NCBI GenBank assembly: GCA_022574495.1
Contig: JACZRW010000001.1
Span: 1 to 52,549, forward strand
Length of the DNA stretch: 52,549 nt
DNA from: Patescibacteria group bacterium
GTDB lineage: Bacteria > Patescibacteriota > Microgenomatia > Woykebacterales > RBG-16-39-9b
Reading direction: 5' to 3'
The notes beneath the pieces were generated by a model. That model had not been told where the DNA came from. It was given only the letters and a program-made list of their open reading frames with translations, and did not search any database. The position numbers and the translations under genes were made by a program. Positions 6,410 through 36,333 of this stretch are shown here, piece after piece (position 1 is the stretch's first letter; each line of letters starts with the position of its first letter).

Positions 6410-7489
6410 ATGGTTAGCGATACGTCGCAAGACCGTACGGTTCGAGGGAAGCCGAGCCATCCTTCGACCCAACCACAGACCCCGCCGTCCTCGGGCAGCG
6501 GGACTATGCAGAGCTAAAGCGTCGTATCGTCGCTGCGGGCCTGCTCGAAAAACAGCCGGGCTACTATGTCTTCAACGCGTCCGTCCGGCTGATGCTCCTG
6601 GCCACCAGCATTTTGTTCTTGTTCATCATCGACAACGTCTGGCTACAGATGCTAAACGCGGTGTTCCTGGCCTTCGCCTCCACACAGATCGGCTATCTTG
6701 GCCATGACGCCGGCCACCGGCAGATCTTCAGCGGCGCGCATCGTAACGACGTCTTCGGGCTGGGGATCAACTTCTTGCTCGCCATCAGCCGCACTTGGTG
6801 GGTTGATACCCACAACGAACACCACGTGGACCCCAATGACCTAGATTACGACCCACATACGAGGTTGCCTATCTTCGTCTTCTCCGATGAACAGGCCCTC
6901 AACAAGGAAGGGCTCCCAGCCCGCATCGTCGGCTATCAGAGTTTCTACTTCTTCCCCATCCTACTCCTAGAGTACTTGGGGGCGCGCCTGGCGAGCGTTC
7001 AGTTATTGTTGGCGGGGGAGGTGAAGGGGAAGTCGTGGGAAGCACTGGCGATGGTCCTCCACTTCGCCGTCTACTTCGGCCTGCTGTTCTACGCGCTTAG
7101 CTGGTGGCACGCGGTGCTCTTCATTGTCGTACACCAGTCGCTGCAGGGGCTCTACATGGGCTCCGTCTTTGCGCCAAACCACAAAGGCATGCCGACGTTC
7201 AACCCGTGAGGACAACATCGATTTCTTCCGCAGGCAGGTTCTGACGAGCCGCAACATCGTTGGGAATCCGATTGCCGACTTCTGGTATGGCGGGCTCAAT
7301 TACCAGATTGAGCATCACCTGTTCCCGAGCATGCCGCGGAACAAGCTGAGGAAGGCTCAGCCTATCGTGAAAGCATTCTGTGAGGAGCGCTCCGTCTCCT
7401 ACGCCGAGTGTAGCGCCTTCCGCTCGAATGTCTTGATCCTTCGGTACTTGCACCGAGTGAGTGCATCGCTACGACCACGTACAACTTAA
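6410..7489 (+). pseudogene. Membrane fatty-acid desaturase, disrupted by at least two frameshifts
   Basis: SD AGAGGAGGT plus ATG at 6410, in a frame that stops at 6517. The frame opening at 6418 carries DYAELKRRIVAAGLLEKQPGYY, HDAGH and HNEHH and stops at 7207-7209. The third His box QIEHHLFPSMPRNKL continues in the other frame (7208-7489). Confidence 0.75.
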
Positions 7490-15328: not shown

Positions 15329-15402
15329 TGGAGGCGACGAGCGGATTCGAACCGCCGTAAAAGGTTTTGCAGACCTCTACCTAGCCACTCGGTCACGTCG
15401 CC
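15329..15402 (-). tRNA. tRNA-Cys (GCA), with encoded CCA
   Basis: Minus-strand read: GGCGACG TG ACC GAGTGGCTA GGT A GAGGT CTGCAAA ACCTT TTAC GGCGG TTCGAAT CCGCT CGTCGCC T CCA. The acceptor stem has 7 perfect pairs and the anticodon loop is CU-GCA-AA. Confidence 0.85.
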
Positions 15403-15480
15403 CCAGTTTGAGCCTAGATTATAGCATATGAACTTAAAAAGATAAAACATTAATCGTGGATACCTTGTAACCTATAGTGG

Positions 15481-15509
15481 TTGACTTTCAGTTAGAAATG
15501 TGTTAGAAT
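15481..15509 (+). promoter_or_regulatory. Near-consensus promoter driving island B
   Basis: TTGACT (15481-15486)-N17-TAGAAT (15504-15509) with a TGT extended -10, preceded by CCTATAGTGG. Confidence 0.6.
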
Positions 15510-15516
15510 CTAGGTT

Positions 15517-15919
15517 CTAAATAAGGCACGAATAAAGAAATATTGTACGTGGAATTTTTAGTTCTTTTGAGCTAAGGATTTTAGTTGCAAGATTTATTTT
15601 AGGTATTTTGCTCCTTAAAAACTCCTTACTTGAGTTACGTAATCATGAACAACTCGTGGTTACTTACCTCGAGTGAGGTTCGCGAGAGCGGTAAAAAATA
15701 TAGTTATACATTCAAAAGAAAGGATGGTAAGCGATACATGCACTAAGAGGCCAAAACCACCAGATCCGGTAGCGAGCATCCCTGCTCTACAAGAATGGTC
15801 TCCCTTCGGAGAGGCAAGTCCGTAATCTAACAACGGGCGGAGCAGGGAGGGTTTTAGTCCCTTCGGGGATACCCTGCTCATGATGCGCATAACATCAACC
15901 GGAGAAGGAGGAATTTGCC
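15517..15919 (+). promoter_or_regulatory. ~400-nt 5' leader of the helicase gene; A+T-rich first third, then G+C-rich and structured
   Basis: No convincing ORF. A UUCG-loop hairpin (CCC-TTCG-GGG) and a second small hairpin (TCTCC-CTTC-GGAGA). GAGCAGGG (15840-15847) is complementary to two identical CCCTGCTC copies (15780-15787 and 15872-15879). Confidence 0.4.
15659..15674 (+). repeat. Left-edge copy of an imperfect direct repeat bounding island B
   Basis: GTTACTTACCTCGAGT compared with GTTACTCAC-TCGAGT at 19009-19023. Both lie at the composition switch. Confidence 0.4.
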
Positions 15920-18900
15920 TTGGATGGCATTCTACCAATCTCCCAGTACCGTGAGTACATAGTGCAAACGGTGCGAGACAACCAGGTTACAATCTTGGTT
16001 GGTGAGACAGGTAGCGGCAAAACCACACAAGTTCCGGTGTATCTTCTGGATGCTGGCTTCGGTCAGCGAGGACGCATCGGAATCACCCAACCTCGACGTC
16101 TAGCTGCCACTTCGGTGGCCGAGTACGTCGCGGATCGTATGGGTTGCCGAGTAGGCGAAGAAGTGGGTTATCAGATCCGCTTCGACGACACTACGACTGA
16201 GGGTACTCGGATCAGTTTCATGACTGACGGCATACTTCTGCAGGAAGCAAAGAGCGACCCGCTCTTCTCTCGTTATGAAGTTTTGGTGTTTGATGAAGCA
16301 CACGAGCGCAACCTCAACACCGACTTTGGTCTTGGTTTGGTCAAGCACGCCCTCAACACGCGAGATGACCTGAAGGTCGTTATCATGTCGGCCACAATCG
16401 ACGCCGATAAGTTCTCCGCCTTTTTCGGCGGGGCACCGATCATTAACGTCGAAGGTAAGACGTACCCAGTTGAGGTGCGCTACCTCGATGCGGTCGACGA
16501 GCAAGACGCGCAGGACCTCTTCATGGACCGTTCCATTGAGGCCCTCGCCGCCTTCAAGGTTGGTCAGATCCACCGCTCTGGCAAGCCGGGAGACATCCTG
16601 GTCTTCATGCCAGGGAAGGATGAGATCTACAAAACCATCCGATTAATTGAACAACTGCATCACCAAGACCTGCACACCCTAGCAGTTTACGGGGACATGA
16701 CGCCTCAGGAACAGCGTCGAATTTTCGACCGGTTTTCTGGACGAAAGGTGATCGTAGCTACCAACATTGCCGAGACCAGCATTACCATAGACGGCGTCGT
16801 GCACGTTGTCGACAGCGGGCTCATCAAGCAGATGAACTTTGACCCCAACACAGGGATCAGGTCTTTAAGCGTGACTGAGCACTCAAAGTCTGGTCTTGCG
16901 CAGCGACTTGGTCGAGCTGGACGCACCCAACCTGGTGTGTGTTGGCGGCTTTTCCTCTCTGAGGAGTACGAGACAGGCCGTCTTCCCTACCAGGGATGGA
17001 GCAAGAAGCAGCGCGATCAATTCACCAAACCAGAAATCCTGCGTACTGACCTAGCTGGTGTTGTCCTTCGGATGATCGGCATCGGTATCACCGACGTCGA
17101 GAGTTTCGAGTTTGTGGATATGCCAGTCGCTGGGGCAATCCATAACGCTTACGAAGCTCTCAAGGCTCTCGAGGCGTTGAACGAGGACAACCAGATCACC
17201 ACTCTTGGCCATCGGTTGCTTGATCTTCCGGTTGAGCCAAGAATCGGTCGAATGATCCTTGCCGCTGAGGACTACGGCTGTGCTGACGAGATTGTCACCA
17301 TCGCCGCCAGCCTTTCGGTGCGAGACGTCTTCCGACGTCCCAGGGACAAGGAGCTTGAAGCTGATGCAGCCAAAGCCCGCTTCACTGACCCAAGGAGCGA
17401 CTTCCTCACCACCCTCAACGTGGTTGAGCAGTATCTCGCTAACCAGGGTATAAGGGAGTGGACACAAGACAACTTCCTGAACTATCGAGCTTTGGAACAA
17501 CTCCTCAACATCCGTGGACAGCTCTTGGAAATCCTCGAGCGACTGCGTGTTGAGGTAGCATCGGTTGGGTATCGCAAACCCAAAGATCGATTCGACCCCA
17601 GTCCGGAGGAAAAGGCCCAAGCTGAAGCAATTGGTAAGGCCGTGACCGCGGGCTTGATTCAGAACCTTTCAATTCTCCGCAGGGGTGTGGACTACGTCCG
17701 CAACGGTGATCTAGTTCGCATCCACCCCGGTAGTGGTCTTTTCAGTGAGCTACCTCGCCTTCTTACCTGCGATAGTATCGTGAAAACGAAAACCCGCAAA
17801 AGCGGCATGATGAACTTCGCCAGAAGTTGTCAAGAGGTAGAACTTCCCTGGGTGGAGGAGATTGCCCCCCATCTACTGAAGACGGAGGTTGAAACGACGC
17901 CGTCCTGGAGCTACTCTCCAGAGGAAGGATACGTATACCAACGTCGAACGTACCTGGCCGGTGTCGAGATCTCCAGCGAGTCCACCCCTGCAAAGGGACC
18001 GGAAGTGGTACGGAAGTTTGCCGAGGATCTAGCCAACGAGCAAAGGTTCCTTAGCTTCATCAACCACAACCAGCAGGTCATGTACAGACTCGAGACAATT
18101 TATAGGGCAAGTGGCGGAATAACCAAGCTTCTTACCCGAGAAGAGCTCACTGAATTTTATGTCGAGCGGCTTGGGGACGCTACCACTAAAGCCGAATCCG
18201 AAGAGAAGAATCTGCAACTGAACCTCGATGACTACGTGTCTGCTGAGGAGAGGAAGCAGTACGGGTCAGAGCGACCGTCGCTGGTGTCTCAAGCAAGGGC
18301 CAGAATTTCCGATTTGGCGACAACCTTGCGAAAGGAAAGTCCGAAGGAACTCGATGAATTTACCAAAAACAAAATCGAGGACCTAAGGAAACGTCTAGAC
18401 GCCATGTCGTTGGACCCCAAAGAGTGGGGTTTCCAGTCTGGTTGGAACGGTAGTAGCCAGATCCGTTCCCTTTTGGGAGATCTACGCTCAGCCGAGGATA
18501 ATCTTCGGTGGGATCAGGAGACAGAGGCAGCTCGTGCAAAGATAGATTCTGTTCGCAGTTCTGTCGAGCGCCATGAGGAGCTGCACCAGCGAAGGCTGGA
18601 ACGACAAGCAAGAAAAGCGGAGGAGGAGCGGCAGGCCGAAGAGGAGCGCAGACAGCTTCAGCAGGAGGAGGAAGGATATAAGGAGTACGAGACAGCGCTA
18701 GTAGCGCTGAAGGCGAAGGCAGGAAGTTGGCCTGGCTTCGGTACCTATCAGTTCCCGTTCAACGCAAATGGTGATCCTGAGGATTATCTCCAAGACGGGT
18801 TTACCCACACGTTGGATTGGGATCACACTGAGGTGCTACCGGACGAGAACGAGTCTTATTGGGGCTTCGTTACTCAGACAATTCCACAAAATGGCGGTGG

Positions 18901-18964
18901 AACAATCAGAAAGATTGCTCTGCTACTGGAAGTCCGAAGCAAACCAGCTCACCTGTCTGACTAG
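15920..18964 (+). CDS. DEAH/RHA-box ATP-dependent helicase (HrpA-like) with a long C-terminal extension
   Basis: TTG start 8 nt after AAGGAGGA. GETGSGKTTQ (motif I), DEAHER (II), SAT (III), QRLGRAGR (VI). About 350 C-terminal residues include an EEERQAEEERRQLQQEEE charged helix. Line 16081-16140 has 35 G+C of 60. Confidence 0.85.
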   Translation: MDGILPISQYREYIVQTVRDNQVTILVGETGSGKTTQVPVYLLDAGFGQRGRIGITQPRRLAATSVAEYVADRMGCRVGEEVGYQIRFDDTTTEGTRISFMTDGILLQEAKSDPLFSRYEVLVFDEAHERNLNTDFGLGLVKHALNTRDDLKVVIMSATIDADKFSAFFGGAPIINVEGKTYPVEVRYLDAVDEQDAQDLFMDRSIEALAAFKVGQIHRSGKPGDILVFMPGKDEIYKTIRLIEQLHHQDLHTLAVYGDMTPQEQRRIFDRFSGRKVIVATNIAETSITIDGVVHVVDSGLIKQMNFDPNTGIRSLSVTEHSKSGLAQRLGRAGRTQPGVCWRLFLSEEYETGRLPYQGWSKKQRDQFTKPEILRTDLAGVVLRMIGIGITDVESFEFVDMPVAGAIHNAYEALKALEALNEDNQITTLGHRLLDLPVEPRIGRMILAAEDYGCADEIVTIAASLSVRDVFRRPRDKELEADAAKARFTDPRSDFLTTLNVVEQYLANQGIREWTQDNFLNYRALEQLLNIRGQLLEILERLRVEVASVGYRKPKDRFDPSPEEKAQAEAIGKAVTAGLIQNLSILRRGVDYVRNGDLVRIHPGSGLFSELPRLLTCDSIVKTKTRKSGMMNFARSCQEVELPWVEEIAPHLLKTEVETTPSWSYSPEEGYVYQRRTYLAGVEISSESTPAKGPEVVRKFAEDLANEQRFLSFINHNQQVMYRLETIYRASGGITKLLTREELTEFYVERLGDATTKAESEEKNLQLNLDDYVSAEERKQYGSERPSLVSQARARISDLATTLRKESPKELDEFTKNKIEDLRKRLDAMSLDPKEWGFQSGWNGSSQIRSLLGDLRSAEDNLRWDQETEAARAKIDSVRSSVERHEELHQRRLERQARKAEEERQAEEERRQLQQEEEGYKEYETALVALKAKAGSWPGFGTYQFPFNANGDPEDYLQDGFTHTLDWDHTEVLPDENESYWGFVTQTIPQNGGGTIRKIALLLEVRSKPAHLSD

Positions 18965-18996
18965 ACAAATAGGAAACACGTAACCTTAAGCGTGAG

Positions 18997-19045
18997 CCCA
19001 GGGATATAGTTACTCACTCGAGTAGCCGAAATGACCTGGGTTTTT
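18997..19045 (+). terminator. Weak terminator-like hairpin after the helicase gene
   Basis: CCCAGG (18997-19002) pairs with CCTGGG (19035-19040) around an ACTC-ACTC-GAGT inner hairpin, followed by TTTTT. Confidence 0.4.
19009..19023 (+). repeat. Right-edge copy of the island B direct repeat
   Basis: See 15659-15674. Confidence 0.4.
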
Positions 19046-19050
19046 CATTT

Positions 19051-33323: not shown

Positions 33324-33342
33324 GTGATAGAATTTGTTGACG

Positions 33343-36333
33343 ATGAAGGATAATTTGAAGGGTTTGAATAAAGCTCAGAAAGTGGCGGTAACTACTACCG
33401 AAGGTCCCCTACTAATTATTGCTGGCGCCGGAACTGGGAAGACTATGGTTATCACCCACCGCATCGCCCGTATTATTAAGAAAAAACTTGCTAAACCTTC
33501 CGAAATTTTGGCTCTTACTTTTACCGAAAAAGCCGCCGGAGAAATGGAAGAAAGAGTAGACGTGCTGGTTCCCTACGGCTATATAGATACTTGGATTTCC
33601 ACTTTTCACGCTTTTGGAAATAAAGTACTGCAAGAAAATGCTATCGATCTAGGCCTTCCACCAGATTATCGGGTGATGACCCGCCCGCAACAAGTTCTCT
33701 TTTTCCAACAAAATCTTTTCGCCTTCGATCTTTCTTATTATCGACCCCTCTCCAACCCAACCAAATTTATTGAAGCCATCCTATCTTTTATAAGTCGGGC
33801 TAAAGATGAAGATATTTCTCCAGAGCAATACCTAGCCTATGTGAAAAAGCTAAAAAAGACCTCTCCAGCAAAGCTAGATTTATCTAAAGAAGAATTCAAA
33901 ACAGAAATAAAGAGACAAGAGGAACTAGCTAACACTTATAAAAAATACGAAGATTTAAAAGAAAAAAATGGGCTTTTGGATTTTGGAGATCAAGTGGTAC
34001 TTACCCTGCGCCTTTTTAGGGACCGGCCGAAGATATTGAAAGAGTATCAAGAAAGATTTAAATATATTCTGGTAGATGAATATCAAGATACCAATTGGGC
34101 GCAGAATGAACTGGTAAAACTTTTGGCGAGTTATACAAAGAACATCTGTGTTGTGGCTGATGACGATCAATCTATCTATCGTTTTCGGGGGGCGGCGATA
34201 AGTAATGTTTTGGAATTTAAAAAAACTTACCCTAAAGCAAGAGTAGTTTCATTAATAGAAAATTACCGATCCACCCAACCACTGTTAGATAGTTCATACC
34301 GATTAATTAAGCATAATGATCCAGACCGTCTAGAGGTGAGAGAAAAAATAAGTAAGAAGCTTTTGGCAGTCCGTAAAAATAAAGGAAGAGGTCCTACTGA
34401 ATTATTTGCAGACACGTTGAGTGAAGAAGCCGATCTTGTAGCAAAAGAAATTGAAAATCTTACTCGGGGATTTCACCCAAAACAACCAGGAAAAAAAGCA
34501 GCTGGAAAGTATAGATCGCTTCGTGGGCTAAATTATCGAGATATCGCGATTTTGGTGCGAGCTAATTCTCAAGCCGATCCATTTTTACGTTCACTTAATA
34601 TGAAAGGAATCCCTCACAAATTTGTTGGTTCTTCCGGACTTTATAATCAGCCAGAAGTAAAACTTTTGATTTCCTACCTTTCCGCGATATCAAATTTTGA
34701 CGATAGTTTAAATCTATACAACCTTGCATCATCTGAAATTTATAAACTACCTATTGAGGATGCAATTACCGCTATGGATTTTGCAAAAAAGAGAAGTAAA
34801 ACTTTACGAAATGTGTTTGAAAAAATTGCAGACGGTGATGAAGAAGTGACAGTCAGTGAGGAAGGGATGGTAATAATAGAAAAAATTATTAACGATTTAA
34901 AAGCCGCGGCCGAGCTTTCCAAAAAAGAAAATGTGGGCCGGGTGCTTTATGATTTTTTAAAAGACACCGGTTATTTATCTCGACTAGAAAGAGAAGGGAG
35001 CATCGATTCGGAAATTAAGGTTCAAAATATTTCTAGATTTTTCGATAAAATAAAAGAGTTTGTAGATCTTGTTCAAAATGAATCTACCCGCGCGTTTGTG
35101 GATTACCTAGAGACGATGAGAGGAGTGGGAGATGATCCAGCTACGGTGGAATTTGATCCAGACTTGGACGCGGTAAATGTAATGACTGTACATTCTGCCA
35201 AAGGATTAGAATTTCCGGTGGTTTTTCTCGTAAATCTAGTGGCTGATCGTTTTCCTTCTCGGCAACGTGGCGACCCGATCCCTCTACCAGATGATTTAAT
35301 AAAAGAAACTTTACCAGCCGGAGACTTTCACATGCAAGAGGAAAGAAGGCTTTTTTACGTAGGGATGACTAGAGCCATGGATCGACTATATTTTTCCTGG
35401 GCCAGGGATATGGGTGGAAAAAGGATCAAAAAAGTCTCTCCTTATGTGTTAGAAAGTCTTGATAAGATAGAGTCAATTGCAAAATTAGTAAAATTATCTG
35501 CGGTTGAAAAAATTAAGCAGTTTGCCCCAGTAGAAAAGAAAAATTATAAACTCCCCCAAGCCGACCAAAAAATAATCAAACTAACCCAAGGATCAATTGA
35601 TGATTACGAGACTTGTGCGTATAAATATCGCTACGCCCATGTATTACGTCTACCAATTCTTCGCCATCACGCCATAGTTTACGGTTTTGCTCTGCACGCC
35701 GCCGTCGCCGAATTTTACCGACAAAAAATGAATAGAAGAAAACCCACTCTAAAAAAATTACTTGAGGTTTTAGAAAATACTTGGGTTACCGAAGGATTTC
35801 TATCCGCCGAACACGAAGAAAATAGATTGGAGCAAGCCAAAAAGGTGCTGGAGAGTTTCTATAAAAGAGAAAAGGATAAAAAAGAACTGCCAAAATTTAT
35901 TGAGAAAAATTTCCGTTTTAGTGTTGGTGATGTGTTGGTTACCGGGAGATTTGATCGTGTCGACGTTGAAGGGAACAAAGTTCGTGTTATCGATTTTAAA
36001 TCTAGTGAAAATCGTTCCCTGGAACAATTAGAAAAAGATGCAAAGAGTAGTGTGCAGCTGAGAATATATGCGTTGGGTTATTATAAAAGTTATGGAGTGA
36101 TACCAAAGTTTGTAGGGATTTATGATTTAGAGTCTGGACTTATCGGTGGTTATGAACCCACAAAAGAAGTGATGAAAAAGACAGAAGAGGAAGTGGTGGA
36201 GGTGGCCAGAAACGTACGTGGGGATCTACAAAACGATGCGTTCGTTGCCAATCCAAAGTATTTCGGCCGCCTCCCCGCCTGTTACTACTGTCCATACAGT
36301 AGTATATGCCCATTCTCACTAGCCAAAGGTTAA
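33343..36333 (+). CDS. UvrD/PcrA-type superfamily-1 helicase fused to a C-terminal PD-(D/E)XK (Cas4/AddB-like, 4-Cys) nuclease
   Basis: AGAGTGKT, VDEYQDTN, YRS, VMTVHSAKGLEFPVV. C-terminus has GRFDRVD...VIDFKSS...QLRIYALGY plus C-x(n)-CYYCPYSSIC. TGaTAGAAT box lies 9 nt before the ATG at 33343. Confidence 0.85.
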   Translation: MKDNLKGLNKAQKVAVTTTEGPLLIIAGAGTGKTMVITHRIARIIKKKLAKPSEILALTFTEKAAGEMEERVDVLVPYGYIDTWISTFHAFGNKVLQENAIDLGLPPDYRVMTRPQQVLFFQQNLFAFDLSYYRPLSNPTKFIEAILSFISRAKDEDISPEQYLAYVKKLKKTSPAKLDLSKEEFKTEIKRQEELANTYKKYEDLKEKNGLLDFGDQVVLTLRLFRDRPKILKEYQERFKYILVDEYQDTNWAQNELVKLLASYTKNICVVADDDQSIYRFRGAAISNVLEFKKTYPKARVVSLIENYRSTQPLLDSSYRLIKHNDPDRLEVREKISKKLLAVRKNKGRGPTELFADTLSEEADLVAKEIENLTRGFHPKQPGKKAAGKYRSLRGLNYRDIAILVRANSQADPFLRSLNMKGIPHKFVGSSGLYNQPEVKLLISYLSAISNFDDSLNLYNLASSEIYKLPIEDAITAMDFAKKRSKTLRNVFEKIADGDEEVTVSEEGMVIIEKIINDLKAAAELSKKENVGRVLYDFLKDTGYLSRLEREGSIDSEIKVQNISRFFDKIKEFVDLVQNESTRAFVDYLETMRGVGDDPATVEFDPDLDAVNVMTVHSAKGLEFPVVFLVNLVADRFPSRQRGDPIPLPDDLIKETLPAGDFHMQEERRLFYVGMTRAMDRLYFSWARDMGGKRIKKVSPYVLESLDKIESIAKLVKLSAVEKIKQFAPVEKKNYKLPQADQKIIKLTQGSIDDYETCAYKYRYAHVLRLPILRHHAIVYGFALHAAVAEFYRQKMNRRKPTLKKLLEVLENTWVTEGFLSAEHEENRLEQAKKVLESFYKREKDKKELPKFIEKNFRFSVGDVLVTGRFDRVDVEGNKVRVIDFKSSENRSLEQLEKDAKSSVQLRIYALGYYKSYGVIPKFVGIYDLESGLIGGYEPTKEVMKKTEEEVVEVARNVRGDLQNDAFVANPKYFGRLPACYYCPYSSICPFSLAKG

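What the first reader, a model, noticed from the sequence alone, without database searches (positions are those of the whole stretch)
15481..19045. Island B: stand-alone DEAH/HrpA-like helicase with an unassigned ~350-aa C-terminal region, next to tRNA-Cys
The 1014-aa ORF has the full DEAH/RHA motif set (GETGSGKTTQ, DEAHER, SAT, QRLGRAGR). After about residue 650 it becomes a region I cannot place. That region has the charged helix EEERQAEEERRQLQQEEE and a Trp/Phe/Asp-rich tail, GSWPGFGTYQFPFNANGDPEDYLQDGFTHTLDWDHTEVLPDENESYWGF. It is by far the most compositionally foreign long gene in the window. It uses a TTG start with a strong SD. It is bracketed by GTTACTTACCTCGAGT (15659) and GTTACTCACTCGAGT (19009). 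The island begins about 250 nt from the 5' side of tRNA-Cys. Single large helicases with extra domains recur in anti-phage and RNA-surveillance systems, but any such role here is inference only.
Basis: partly seen in the sequence, partly recalled or inferred. Interest (0 to 1): 0.65.

Follow-up and report, generated by a model that had tools for sequence, protein, structure and literature searches.

The report
Inserted HrpA-like helicase cassette with conserved leader RNA
A 3.6-kb foreign, self-contained gene cassette in a Patescibacteria genome encodes an HrpA-type RNA helicase with an unusual tail, and its mRNA leader carries a conserved structured RNA, apparently undescribed, that precedes such helicase genes across many Patescibacteria lineages.

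Summary
The 1014-aa TTG-start ORF (15920-18964), its DEAH motifs, the GC jump and tRNA-Cys are all present.

- **Insertion.** Two syntenic relatives (L067, L068) keep the same tRNA-Cys and both flanking genes but lack the helicase. About 15432-19050 is therefore inserted. A copy with 83% protein identity sits in a different neighbourhood (L001). There is no integrase, no target duplication and no phage or plasmid link.
- **Protein.** It is an intact DEAH/RHA helicase under purifying selection (dN/dS 0.16). It matches HrpA only to residue ~753 and lacks HrpA's ribosome-collision-sensing C-terminal region. In its place are ~150 aa of long helices and an ~80-aa beta module. That module folds confidently, has no significant structural match, and has 17 representatives among 1.84 billion proteins.
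- **Leader RNA (unexpected).** A ~105-nt three-helix RNA (15774-15878) lies 41 nt upstream of the start codon. It recurs with covarying hairpins at about 20 distinct sites. Every site with readable downstream sequence lies just upstream of an HrpA-like helicase gene or a partner ORF. It has no Rfam match.

I infer a cis-acting translational operator, probably feedback by the helicase. That mechanism is untested. The anti-phage idea has no support.

The parts
15329..15402 (-). tRNA-Cys(GCA). A landmark in the backbone, not part of the inserted DNA.
   Evidence: ARAGORN and Rfam. The same tRNA is present at the empty sites L067 and L068.
15432..19050 (.). Inserted cassette (~3.62 kb), absent from syntenic relatives.
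   Evidence: L067 and L068 share the flanking genes and tRNA-Cys, but only 63-90 nt separate the tRNA from the PEGA/SH3 stop codon. Homology with the window ends at ...TTATAGCATAT (~15431) and resumes at CTACAATTTC (19051). GC is 0.54 against 0.37-0.40 in the flanks.
15481..15509 (+). Sigma-70-type promoter TTGACT-17-TAGAAT with an extended -10 TG.
   Evidence: Promoter scan, 10 of 12 matches. Conserved as TTGACT...TATAAT in L001, which is where window-L001 homology begins.
15516..15919 (+). 5' leader of ~400 nt. The start position is inferred from the promoter.
   Evidence: Conserved between the window and L001 despite different flanking genes. Fold z-score -3.07 for 15650-15925.
15659..15674 (+). 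Leader copy of the repeat, GTTACTTACCTCGAGT, within a hairpin.
   Evidence: Conserved exactly in L001, L004 and L044.
15774..15878 (+). Conserved three-helix RNA motif. P1 is GAGCA/UGCUC. P2 is CCCUGCUC/GAGCAGGG and encloses hairpins P2a and P2b, separated by CAAGUC. P3 is GGGU[hairpin]ACCC.
   Evidence: Covariance-model (CM) hit 15769-15885 at 94.3 bits, E 9e-21, the only copy in the window. RNAalifold recovers P1, P2 and P3. 93.7% of cells are paired against 86.5% in shuffles, 0 of 500 reaching the observed value. The hairpins covary. No Rfam match.
15901..15911 (+). Shine-Dalgarno sequence GGAGAAGGAGG, 8 nt before the TTG start.
   Evidence: Read directly from the sequence.
15920..17884 (+). 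Helicase core, aa 1-655: RecA1, RecA2, winged helix, ratchet and OB domains.
   Evidence: Pfam DEAD, Helicase_C, HA2_N, HA2_C and OB_NTP_bind. PDB matches to Prp22/DHX8 at E-138 and HrpA at E-126. Foldseek top hits are HrpA and DHX8.
17885..18244 (+). Post-OB region, aa 656-775. Still HrpA-like to about residue 753.
   Evidence: TIGR01967 alignment 4-753 to profile positions 65-792. 9ggr HrpA 77-805. pLDDT ~70-80. dN/dS 0.135.
18245..18721 (+). Variable charged helical stalk, aa 776-934, including a ~67-residue helix.
   Evidence: AF2 secondary structure shows helices 813-934. The sequence is poorly conserved in the alignment, though its length and helical character are kept. dN/dS 0.195.
18722..18961 (+). 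Conserved terminal beta module, aa 935-1014 (WPGFGxYxF...GDPxDY...EVLP...YWGxVTQ).
   Evidence: AF2 on 18 sequences gives pLDDT 93.8 and pTM 0.82. No significant fold match; the weak hits are OB/S1/TRAM barrels. 17 representatives among 1.84e9 proteins: 14 are DEAH helicase C-termini or C-terminal fragments and 3 are false hits to repeat proteins.
18997..19045 (+). Terminator-like hairpin, CCCAGG...CCTGGG followed by TTTTT, with an inner hairpin in its loop.
   Evidence: Read from the sequence. L001 has the compensatory GCCAGAG/CTCTGGC. The simple terminator scan did not call it, because the loop exceeds 8 nt.
19009..19023 (+). 3' copy of the repeat, GTTACTCACTCGAGT, in the terminator loop.
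   Evidence: It is degenerate in L001 and L004.

Best explanation
SHOWN. Positions ~15432-19050 are a horizontally acquired, self-contained single-gene expression cassette. It runs promoter, ~400-nt leader, ORF, terminator. It is inserted between tRNA-Cys and the stop codon of a PEGA/SH3 gene in a low-GC Patescibacteria genome.

The gene encodes an intact DEAH/RHA RNA helicase of the HrpA lineage, under selection. HrpA's C-terminal region, which recognises collided ribosomes, is absent. In its place are a long helical stalk and a small beta module that is restricted to a tiny clade.

The leader contains a ~105-nt three-helix RNA, conserved in sequence and structure. The same RNA lies immediately 5' of the ribosome-binding site of HrpA-like helicase genes in several Patescibacteria clades. 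In split two-gene versions it also precedes a partner ORF.

INFERRED.
1. The RNA is a cis-acting operator of translation initiation, or of mRNA fate. The helicase, or the helicase-partner complex, feeds back through it on its own synthesis. A bound protein or the stably folded three-helix junction next to the SD would hinder 30S loading, and 3'-to-5' unwinding by the helicase would remodel it.
2. The enzyme itself acts as a 3'-to-5' RNA translocase on structured RNA or ribosome-bound mRNA, like HrpA. Its stalk and barrel would provide a different docking specificity.
3. The cassette spreads by recombination among Patescibacteria populations rather than by an element-encoded integrase.

The confidence value covers the whole statement. 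The SHOWN parts alone would rate about 0.9 and the feedback mechanism about 0.4.
For: Insertion:
- Empty sites in the syntenic loci L067 and L068.
- A copy with 83% protein identity has different neighbours, and homology to it runs exactly from promoter to terminator.
- GC 0.54 against 0.34-0.40 in three independent assemblies; GC3 z-score 2.6.
- A mosaic of allelic segments between the window and L004: 99-100% identity, then 73-86%.

Helicase:
- Pfam, NCBIfam, PDB and Foldseek results.
- dN/dS 0.16 overall and 0.13-0.23 in each C-terminal segment.
- HrpA's C-terminal region is required for recognising collided ribosomes (PMC11419001), and it is absent here.
- The terminal module folds at pLDDT 93.8 and is rare.

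RNA:
- Invariant junction strands with variable, covarying hairpins in loci whose helicases are only 31-51% identical.
- The RNAalifold architecture.
- 93.7% of cells paired against 86.5 +/- 1.0 in shuffles; covariation score 0.261 against 0.141 (0 of 500 shuffles reach it); 37-47% paired when partners are slid.
- CM hits of 37-107 bits at about 20 distinct sites, all on the sense strand. The motif ends 10-51 nt before the start of a helicase or partner ORF at every site with readable downstream sequence. Two further sites sit at contig ends.
- Second copies lie in front of the partner ORF.
- In native context the minimum-free-energy folds recover P1, P2 and P3.
- The motif differs at 15% of positions between the window and L001, against 40% of synonymous sites.
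Against: - No experiment and no transcript data. The transcription start and leader are inferred from a consensus promoter.
- The core helices P1 and P2 are almost invariant. Covariation support therefore comes mainly from the helix ends and the inserted hairpins, and from only 18 sequences, some of them closely related.
- SD sequestration is not a consistent feature. In the window the SD pairing probability is 0.39 against 0.50 +/- 0.17 in shuffles.
- The motif is absent upstream of some family members (L005 and L061), and upstream of the helicase in L035, where only the partner-ORF copy was found. It is therefore not obligatory.
- Exclusive association with one gene family favours protein feedback over a metabolite sensor, but does not prove it.
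- The target of the helicase is unknown. The OB-like reading of the terminal module rests on non-significant Foldseek hits (E >= 0.16).
- The mechanism of mobility is unknown.
Confidence: 0.55

Rival explanations
1. The leader motif is a riboswitch. Its three-helix junction binds a small molecule, an ion or a tRNA, and so couples helicase synthesis to a cellular signal such as translation or nucleotide status. The helicase is not the effector.
For: - Its size (~100 nt), its invariant junction nucleotides with variable peripheral hairpins, and its position just 5' of the ribosome-binding site are typical of translational riboswitches.
- The CCCUGCUC strand is duplicated, and both copies are complementary to the central GAGCAGGG. 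This permits an alternative fold only 3-10 kcal/mol above the minimum free energy.
Against: - Every site with readable downstream sequence precedes one helicase family or its partner ORF. Riboswitch classes normally control transport or metabolism genes for their ligand.
- No ligand candidate emerges from the gene context.
- No Rfam riboswitch family matches.
Confidence: 0.2
2. The motif is an RNA processing or stability element, or the helicase's loading platform or cofactor. It could be a nuclease site that separates cistrons, a 5' stabiliser, or an RNA partner forming an RNP with the helicase. On this reading it is not a translational operator.
For: - In two-gene loci a copy sits between the helicase and the partner ORF, directly after a terminator-like hairpin.
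- SD occlusion is inconsistent.
- The leader and the terminator loop share a CUCGAG-containing element that could pair 5' to 3'.
Against: - The constant 10-51 nt spacing to the start codon, with the SD abutting P1 in the two-gene clade, points to initiation control.
- No free-standing copies were found away from ORF starts.
Confidence: 0.15
3. The cassette is an anti-phage or other conflict system. A mobile single-protein helicase effector senses or destroys foreign RNA.
For: - Horizontal acquisition, patchy distribution, a decaying copy (L057) and a mosaic of alleles concentrated partly in the C-terminal half all resemble the dynamics of defence genes.
Against: - PADLOC gives only generic ATPase-level hits at 16-19 bits, and PHROGs gives only a generic helicase.
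- There is no nuclease, toxin or other effector domain.
- Neighbours differ between loci, and none is a defence gene.
- dN/dS is low throughout.
Confidence: 0.08
4. It is an ordinary, vertically inherited housekeeping hrpA, or the GC-rich block is an assembly chimera or contamination.
For: - HrpA-like helicases of 740-800 aa are common in Patescibacteria.
Against: - Empty sites in syntenic relatives, and a different context at 83% protein identity.
- A score below the HrpA equivalog cut-off and no DUF3418.
- The same junctions appear in an independent assembly (L004), and the same GC contrast appears in three assemblies.
Confidence: 0.03

Closest known systems
E. coli HrpA (DEAH/RHA helicase; rescues collided ribosomes; PDB 6ZWW, 9GFT, 9GGR)
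   Same: RecA1, RecA2, winged-helix, ratchet and OB core, plus ~100 aa after the OB domain. The alignment covers query 5-753 and HrpA 77-805 at E 3e-126. It is the top Foldseek hit.
   Different: The TIGR01967 score of 575 is below the 722.75 cut-off. HrpA's first ~64-76 residues are missing. HrpA's C-terminal region (alpha+beta-1, alpha+beta-2 and the Hook; DUF3418) is entirely absent, and that region is what recognises collided ribosomes. In its place are a helical stalk and a small beta module.
Eukaryotic spliceosomal DEAH helicases Prp22/DHX8 and Prp43/DHX15
   Same: These are the best PDB sequence matches to the core (E 2e-138, query 5-654). Public annotations name Patescibacteria homologues 'dhx8'.
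   Different: There is no G-patch partner and no spliceosome context. The N- and C-terminal extensions are unrelated.
The common 740-800-aa Patescibacteria HrpA-like helicase (e.g. P0037, Parcubacteria GW2011_GWF2_43_11)
   Same: 45-51% identical core. A compact version of the same leader RNA motif lies upstream (L063-L065).
   Different: It ends shortly after the OB region and lacks the stalk and the terminal module. It covers only ~64-68% of the query.
Autoregulatory leaders of RNA-metabolism enzymes and ribosomal proteins (rne 5' UTR for RNase E, pnp leader, r-protein leaders). Named from general knowledge, not tested here.
   Same: A conserved structured element in the 5' UTR next to the ribosome-binding site, associated exclusively with the gene family whose product acts on RNA.
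   Different: No sequence or structure match to any Rfam family. Feedback by the helicase is inferred, not shown.
tRNA-linked genomic islands
   Same: Foreign composition, adjacency to a tRNA gene and an empty site in relatives.
   Different: No integrase, no att or direct-repeat borders, and the insertion is on the 5' side of the tRNA. Other copies are not near tRNAs.

Membership tests
DEAH/RHA (SF2) RNA helicases | Motifs I (GxGKT), II (DEAH), III (SAT) and VI (QRxGRAGR) | tested here: met
   GETGSGKTTQ 28-37, DEAHER 125-130, SAT 157-159, QRLGRAGR 328-335. Pfam DEAD and Helicase_C score above their cut-offs.
DEAH/RHA (SF2) RNA helicases | C-terminal winged-helix, ratchet (HA2) and OB domains | tested here: met
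   HA2_N 24.8 bits and HA2_C 50.9 bits, both above cut-off. OB_NTP_bind scores 27.6, just below its gathering score of 29.5, but the region is covered by the HrpA and PDB alignments.
HrpA (NCBIfam TIGR01967 equivalog) | Whole-protein score at or above the curated cut-off of 722.75 bits | tested here: not met
   575.3 bits. The alignment covers only profile positions 65-792 of 1284.
HrpA (NCBIfam TIGR01967 equivalog) | C-terminal region (DUF3418, PF11898: alpha+beta-1, alpha+beta-2, Hook) that binds collided ribosomes | tested here: not met
   No PF11898 hit. The alignment to full-length HrpA stops at HrpA residue 805. Domain definitions are from PMC11419001.
HrpA (NCBIfam TIGR01967 equivalog) | ATP-dependent splitting of collided ribosomes | not testable with these tools
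   Needs biochemistry.
HrpB (TIGR01970) | Score at or above 546.15 bits, plus the HrpB C-terminal domain | tested here: not met
   382.3 bits, aligned only over 5-483.
Any Rfam 15 RNA family | Covariance-model match to the leader motif | tested here: not met
   At gathering thresholds the only hit in the window is the tRNA. Permissive scans of the leader and of three other variants gave only noise.
Known anti-phage defence systems (PADLOC-DB 2.0) | Match to a defence-protein model, plus system partners | tested here: not met
   Only 16-19-bit generic Cas3/RecD ATPase hits. No conserved neighbours.
Integrase-mediated tRNA-linked genomic island | An integrase or recombinase gene and att direct repeats at the borders | tested here: not met
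   The cassette has a single ORF. There are no border repeats. The tRNA is backbone DNA.
Horizontally acquired DNA (generic) | Deviant composition, and absence from syntenic relatives | tested here: met
Cis-regulatory structured RNA (riboswitch or protein-binding leader) | A conserved secondary structure supported by covariation, in a fixed position relative to the regulated ORF | tested here: met
Cis-regulatory structured RNA (riboswitch or protein-binding leader) | A demonstrated effector (ligand or protein) and a regulatory output | not testable with these tools
   Needs probing, toeprinting and reporter assays. The computed SD occlusion is inconsistent.

The most novel reading that the evidence does not exclude
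The leader element is a new class of structured regulatory RNA, specific to Patescibacteria HrpA-like helicase genes and their partner ORFs. Through it an RNA helicase senses and remodels its own mRNA, or the motif senses a translation-stress signal. The RNA travels together with the helicase as one mobile, self-regulating cassette. The stalk-plus-barrel tail would then be a novel targeting device that adapts an HrpA-type ribosome or RNA rescue motor to the atypical ribosomes of these bacteria.
Probability: 0.35. Interest if true: 0.75.

Novelty: new variant of a known kind. Interest (0 to 1): 0.62.

Why it matters
Patescibacteria make up a large share of bacterial diversity, yet almost nothing is known about how they regulate genes or control RNA quality.

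- **Regulation.** A conserved leader RNA tied to one helicase family gives a concrete, testable regulatory unit in these organisms. It would add a candidate to the small set of RNA-remodelling enzymes that control their own mRNAs.
- **HrpA-type motors.** In E. coli the C-terminal region makes HrpA a sensor of collided ribosomes. Here that region is replaced by a different module. The question of what these motors dock onto in bacteria with reduced, unusual ribosomes becomes directly addressable.
- **Gene flow.** The precise empty site and the allelic mosaic document recent gene flow and recombination in a lineage thought to be streamlined.

Tried and rejected
1. **uORF in the leader** (ATG ~15725, 'MVSDTCTKRPKPP...'). 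The first window-L001 differences looked synonymous. The reading frame and sequence are not conserved in L006 or L002, whereas the RNA helices are. Rejected.
2. **The 1014-aa protein as a fusion of the helicase and partner ORF of the two-gene loci.** BLASTP gives E 0.27, from coiled-coil only. hhalign aligns only partner residues 7-56 with our 713-761, at E 0.014 and probability 3%. Not established. The Kaiserbacteria helicase tail does match the partner ORF at E 2e-6.
3. **SD sequestration as the universal mechanism.** It is strong in L002, L063, L053 and L006, but not in the window or most other loci when compared with shuffles.
4. **tRNA-targeted integration.** Rejected.
5. **The repeats as att sites.** Rejected.
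6. **Phage, plasmid or viral origin.** There is no motif and no close relative in IMG/VR. There is no phage hit, and only two short weak plasmid-collection matches (3-5% of the cassette, 68-72% identity).
7. **Searches that failed.** The word-indexed protein search with the terminal-module alignment returned nothing; the exhaustive search did work. The search for related loci with that alignment failed because it has no sufficiently conserved stretch of 7-10 columns.
8. **Full-length AF2 with 7 sequences.** Poor (pLDDT 60.6). I used it only for secondary structure and the trivial core match.
9. **Pattern hits.** 32 of the 42 metagenome hits and 6 of the 10 genome hits were GC-rich chance matches. 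They scored under 23 CM bits or were not detected at all.

Full report
**1. Checking the observation**

The window is a 52.5-kb contig annotated publicly as 'Patescibacteria group bacterium'. The ORF at 15920-18964 (+) encodes 1014 aa from a TTG start. The Shine-Dalgarno (SD) sequence GGAGAAGGAGG lies at 15901-15911.

NCBI's model starts 25 codons later (989 aa). Residues 4-25 align to the HrpA profile and are conserved in relatives, so the longer ORF is preferred.

tRNA-Cys(GCA) lies at 15329-15402 on the minus strand. GC rises from ~0.35 to 0.52-0.55 over 16-19 kb. Gene GC3 is 0.594, against 0.33 +/- 0.10 for the other ORFs. Only a split desaturase at 6.6-7.5 kb is more extreme.

**2. It is an insertion**

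Full-length relatives are few: P0002 87%, P0003 83%, P0004-P0006 and P0008 46-54%.

- L004 (P0002) is the same locus in a close strain.
- L001 (P0003) has entirely different neighbours. DNA homology to the window begins at a TTGACT-17-TAGAAT promoter and ends just past a terminator hairpin.

I then searched for relatives of the flanking PEGA/SH3 gene. Two contigs, L067 and L068 (84% and 80% protein identity), are syntenic on both sides. The gene order is glycosyltransferase, UbiA, a 181-aa ORF, PEGA/SH3, tRNA-Cys, M23 peptidase, histidine kinase. In both, only 63-90 nt separate the tRNA from the PEGA/SH3 stop codon, and there is no helicase.

Alignment places the junctions at about 15431|15432 and 19050|19051. 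There is no target duplication, no inverted repeat and no integrase. The tRNA is backbone DNA, and seven other helicase loci have no tRNA nearby.

Both copies lie inside the transcript, and only the 5' copy is conserved.

The window and L004 are 99-100% identical from the left flank to ~16420, and then only 73-86% identical in patches. That is an allelic mosaic and implies recombination between cassette variants.

Neither the motif nor the protein has close relatives in 2.9 million viral contigs or among phage records. Two short weak matches in the plasmid collection cover only 3-5% of the cassette.

**3. The protein**

- **Core.** Pfam finds DEAD, Helicase_C, HA2_N, HA2_C and OB_NTP_bind; the last scores just under its cut-off.
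- **HrpA model.** NCBIfam's HrpA model aligns residues 4-753 to profile positions 65-792 of 1284. The score is 575 bits, below the equivalog cut-off of 722.75. There is no DUF3418.
- **Solved structures.** Prp22/DHX8 (E-138) and E. coli HrpA (E-126) are closest. Full-length HrpA aligns only to its residue 805, and Foldseek agrees.
- **What is missing.** In E. coli the region beyond ~783 is required to recognise and split collided ribosomes: alpha+beta-1, alpha+beta-2 and the Hook (PMC11419001). That region is absent here.
- **What replaces it.** Residues ~776-934 are predicted helical, including one helix of about 67 residues. The sequence there is poorly conserved.
- **Terminal module.** Residues ~935-1014 form a conserved module. 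With an 18-sequence alignment it folds at pLDDT 93.8 and pTM 0.82 as a helix plus five strands. Fold searches give nothing significant. The weak top hits are mostly OB/S1/TRAM/cold-shock barrels, which I treat only as a hint.
- **Rarity.** An exhaustive profile search finds the module in only 17 cluster representatives among 1.84 billion. Fourteen are at the C-terminus of DEAH helicases or are C-terminal fragments, and three are false hits to repeat proteins.
- **Selection.** dN/dS against L001 is 0.16 overall and 0.13-0.23 in each C-terminal segment. The whole protein is maintained by selection.
- **Defence and phage libraries.** PADLOC and PHROGs give only generic ATPase matches.

**4. The leader RNA**

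The leader is as conserved as the ORF between the window and L001. It contains GC-rich hairpins, and its fold z-score is -3.07.

Aligning the leaders of distant family members exposed a common core: GAGCAnCCCUGCU ... CAAGUC ... GCAGGGnGGG ... CCCUGCU. It ends 36-51 nt before the start codon.

A pattern scan of metagenomes and reference genomes retrieved further instances. They include a clade whose helicases are only ~31% identical to ours. That clade includes Candidatus Kaiserbacteria and unclassified Patescibacteria.

The evidence for structure is as follows.

- RNAalifold independently predicts P1 (GAGCA/UGCUC), P2 (CCCUGCUC/GAGCAGGG) and P3 (GGGU...ACCC).
- The three variable inserts fold into hairpins of different sequence and length in every lineage. 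P2b, for example, is CCGU/ACGG, UCCAG/CUGGA, CAC/GUG, CGC/GCG or UUACG/CGUGA in different loci.
- A covariance model (CM) scores the true sites at 37-107 bits and chance pattern matches below 23 bits. It finds a single copy in the window, at 15769-15885 (94 bits).
- On the 18-sequence model alignment, 93.7% of cells pair, against 86.5 +/- 1.0 in shuffles. Covariation is 0.261 against 0.141, and 0 of 500 shuffles reach it. Sliding the partners drops pairing to 37-47%.

The model also found second copies in three loci. Each lies just after a 648-650-aa helicase ORF and 5-7 nt before a 486-489-aa partner ORF that has no Pfam domain; in L031 that ORF is cut short at 262 aa. A fourth locus, L035, has the same helicase-motif-partner order.

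A compact 97-nt form precedes the common 740-aa Parcubacteria helicase. Another copy precedes P0007's gene.

The motif is absent upstream of P0004's and P0015's genes. Nothing in Rfam 15 matches any variant. Two literature searches found no description. I cannot exclude a description outside those resources.

**5. Mechanism**

What is shown is a structured RNA that is fixed immediately 5' of the ribosome-binding site and occurs only with one helicase family and its partner. In the two-gene clade the SD abuts P1.

I infer a cis-acting operator of initiation, most likely feedback by the helicase or its complex.

- **SD pairing.** It is not a general feature. It is strong in four loci, but not in the window itself: 0.39 against 0.50 +/- 0.17 in shuffles.
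- **Alternative fold.** The duplicated CCCUGCUC strand allows an alternative fold made only of local hairpins. It lies 3-10 kcal/mol above the minimum free energy. That is compatible with a switch but does not prove one.
- **Helicase target.** A 3'-to-5' translocase role on structured RNA or ribosome-bound mRNA is inferred from the HrpA core. The different tail implies different docking.

**6. Rivals and verdict**

A metabolite riboswitch (0.2) and a processing, stability or RNP element (0.15) remain open. A defence role (0.08) has only circumstantial support, from gene mobility and the allelic mosaic. Vertical housekeeping hrpA, or an assembly artefact, is contradicted by the data (0.03).

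The helicase is a new variant of a known kind. The leader RNA appears to be an undescribed motif, and it is the main reason for the interest score.

Noticed in passing
window 6592-7489: A second GC-rich foreign patch. It is a fatty-acid desaturase (PF00487) split into two overlapping ORFs, 6592-7209 and 7124-7489, with GC3 of 0.82 and 0.68. It is probably a frameshifted, horizontally acquired gene.
   Followed up: partly
L030 2800-6560; L051 2596-6360; L031 1-3280; L035 1476-4911: A recurring two-gene operon: a 648-650-aa DEAH helicase plus a 365-489-aa partner ORF with no Pfam domain (the L031 copy is cut short at 262 aa). Each cistron has its own copy of the leader motif, except the L035 helicase. 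In Kaiserbacteria (L053) the helicase's C-terminal extension matches part of the partner ORF at E 2e-6.
   Followed up: partly
window 15422-19050 compared with L004: An allelic mosaic. Identity is 99-100% through the leader and the first ~500 nt of the ORF, then 81-86% over 16620-17000 and 73-86% over 17900-18700. This implies recombination between divergent cassette alleles within a population.
   Followed up: partly
window 15659-15674 and 19009-19023: The leader and the terminator loop share a GTTACTYAC(N)TCGAGT element that contains the self-complementary CUCGAG. The two copies could pair, giving a 5'-3' contact. The 3' copy keeps partial complementarity in L001 and L004. Its function is unknown.
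   Followed up: partly
L057 4144-4870: The motif is intact (82 bits), but the downstream helicase ORF is truncated at 193 aa and runs into AT-rich, host-like sequence. This is apparently a decaying copy in a low-GC Patescibacteria genome.
   Followed up: no
all helicase loci (window, L001, L002, L005-L007, L030, L051, L053, L060, L061, L063, L066): HrpA-like helicase genes and systems are more GC-rich than nearly all their flanks, by +0.02 to +0.17, across hosts ranging from 0.34 to 0.52 GC. The two exceptions are very short downstream flanks, in L006 and L051. The cause could be repeated transfer from GC-richer donors or a constraint on the mRNA. It is unexplained.
   Followed up: partly
L030, L031, L051 and L035, just 3' of the helicase and partner ORFs: The 3' UTRs share TTTGGTTAC(T/C), then a hairpin, then CCACTTTATT. 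This may be a conserved terminator or 3' element of the two-gene clade.
   Followed up: no
L061 2900-3000: Tandem CAGCATC heptamers lie directly upstream of P0015's helicase gene, in the position where other loci have the leader motif.
   Followed up: no
window 33334-36333: A 999-aa UvrD-type helicase fused to a PD-(D/E)XK nuclease (AddA/PcrA-like architecture), with native composition.
   Followed up: no
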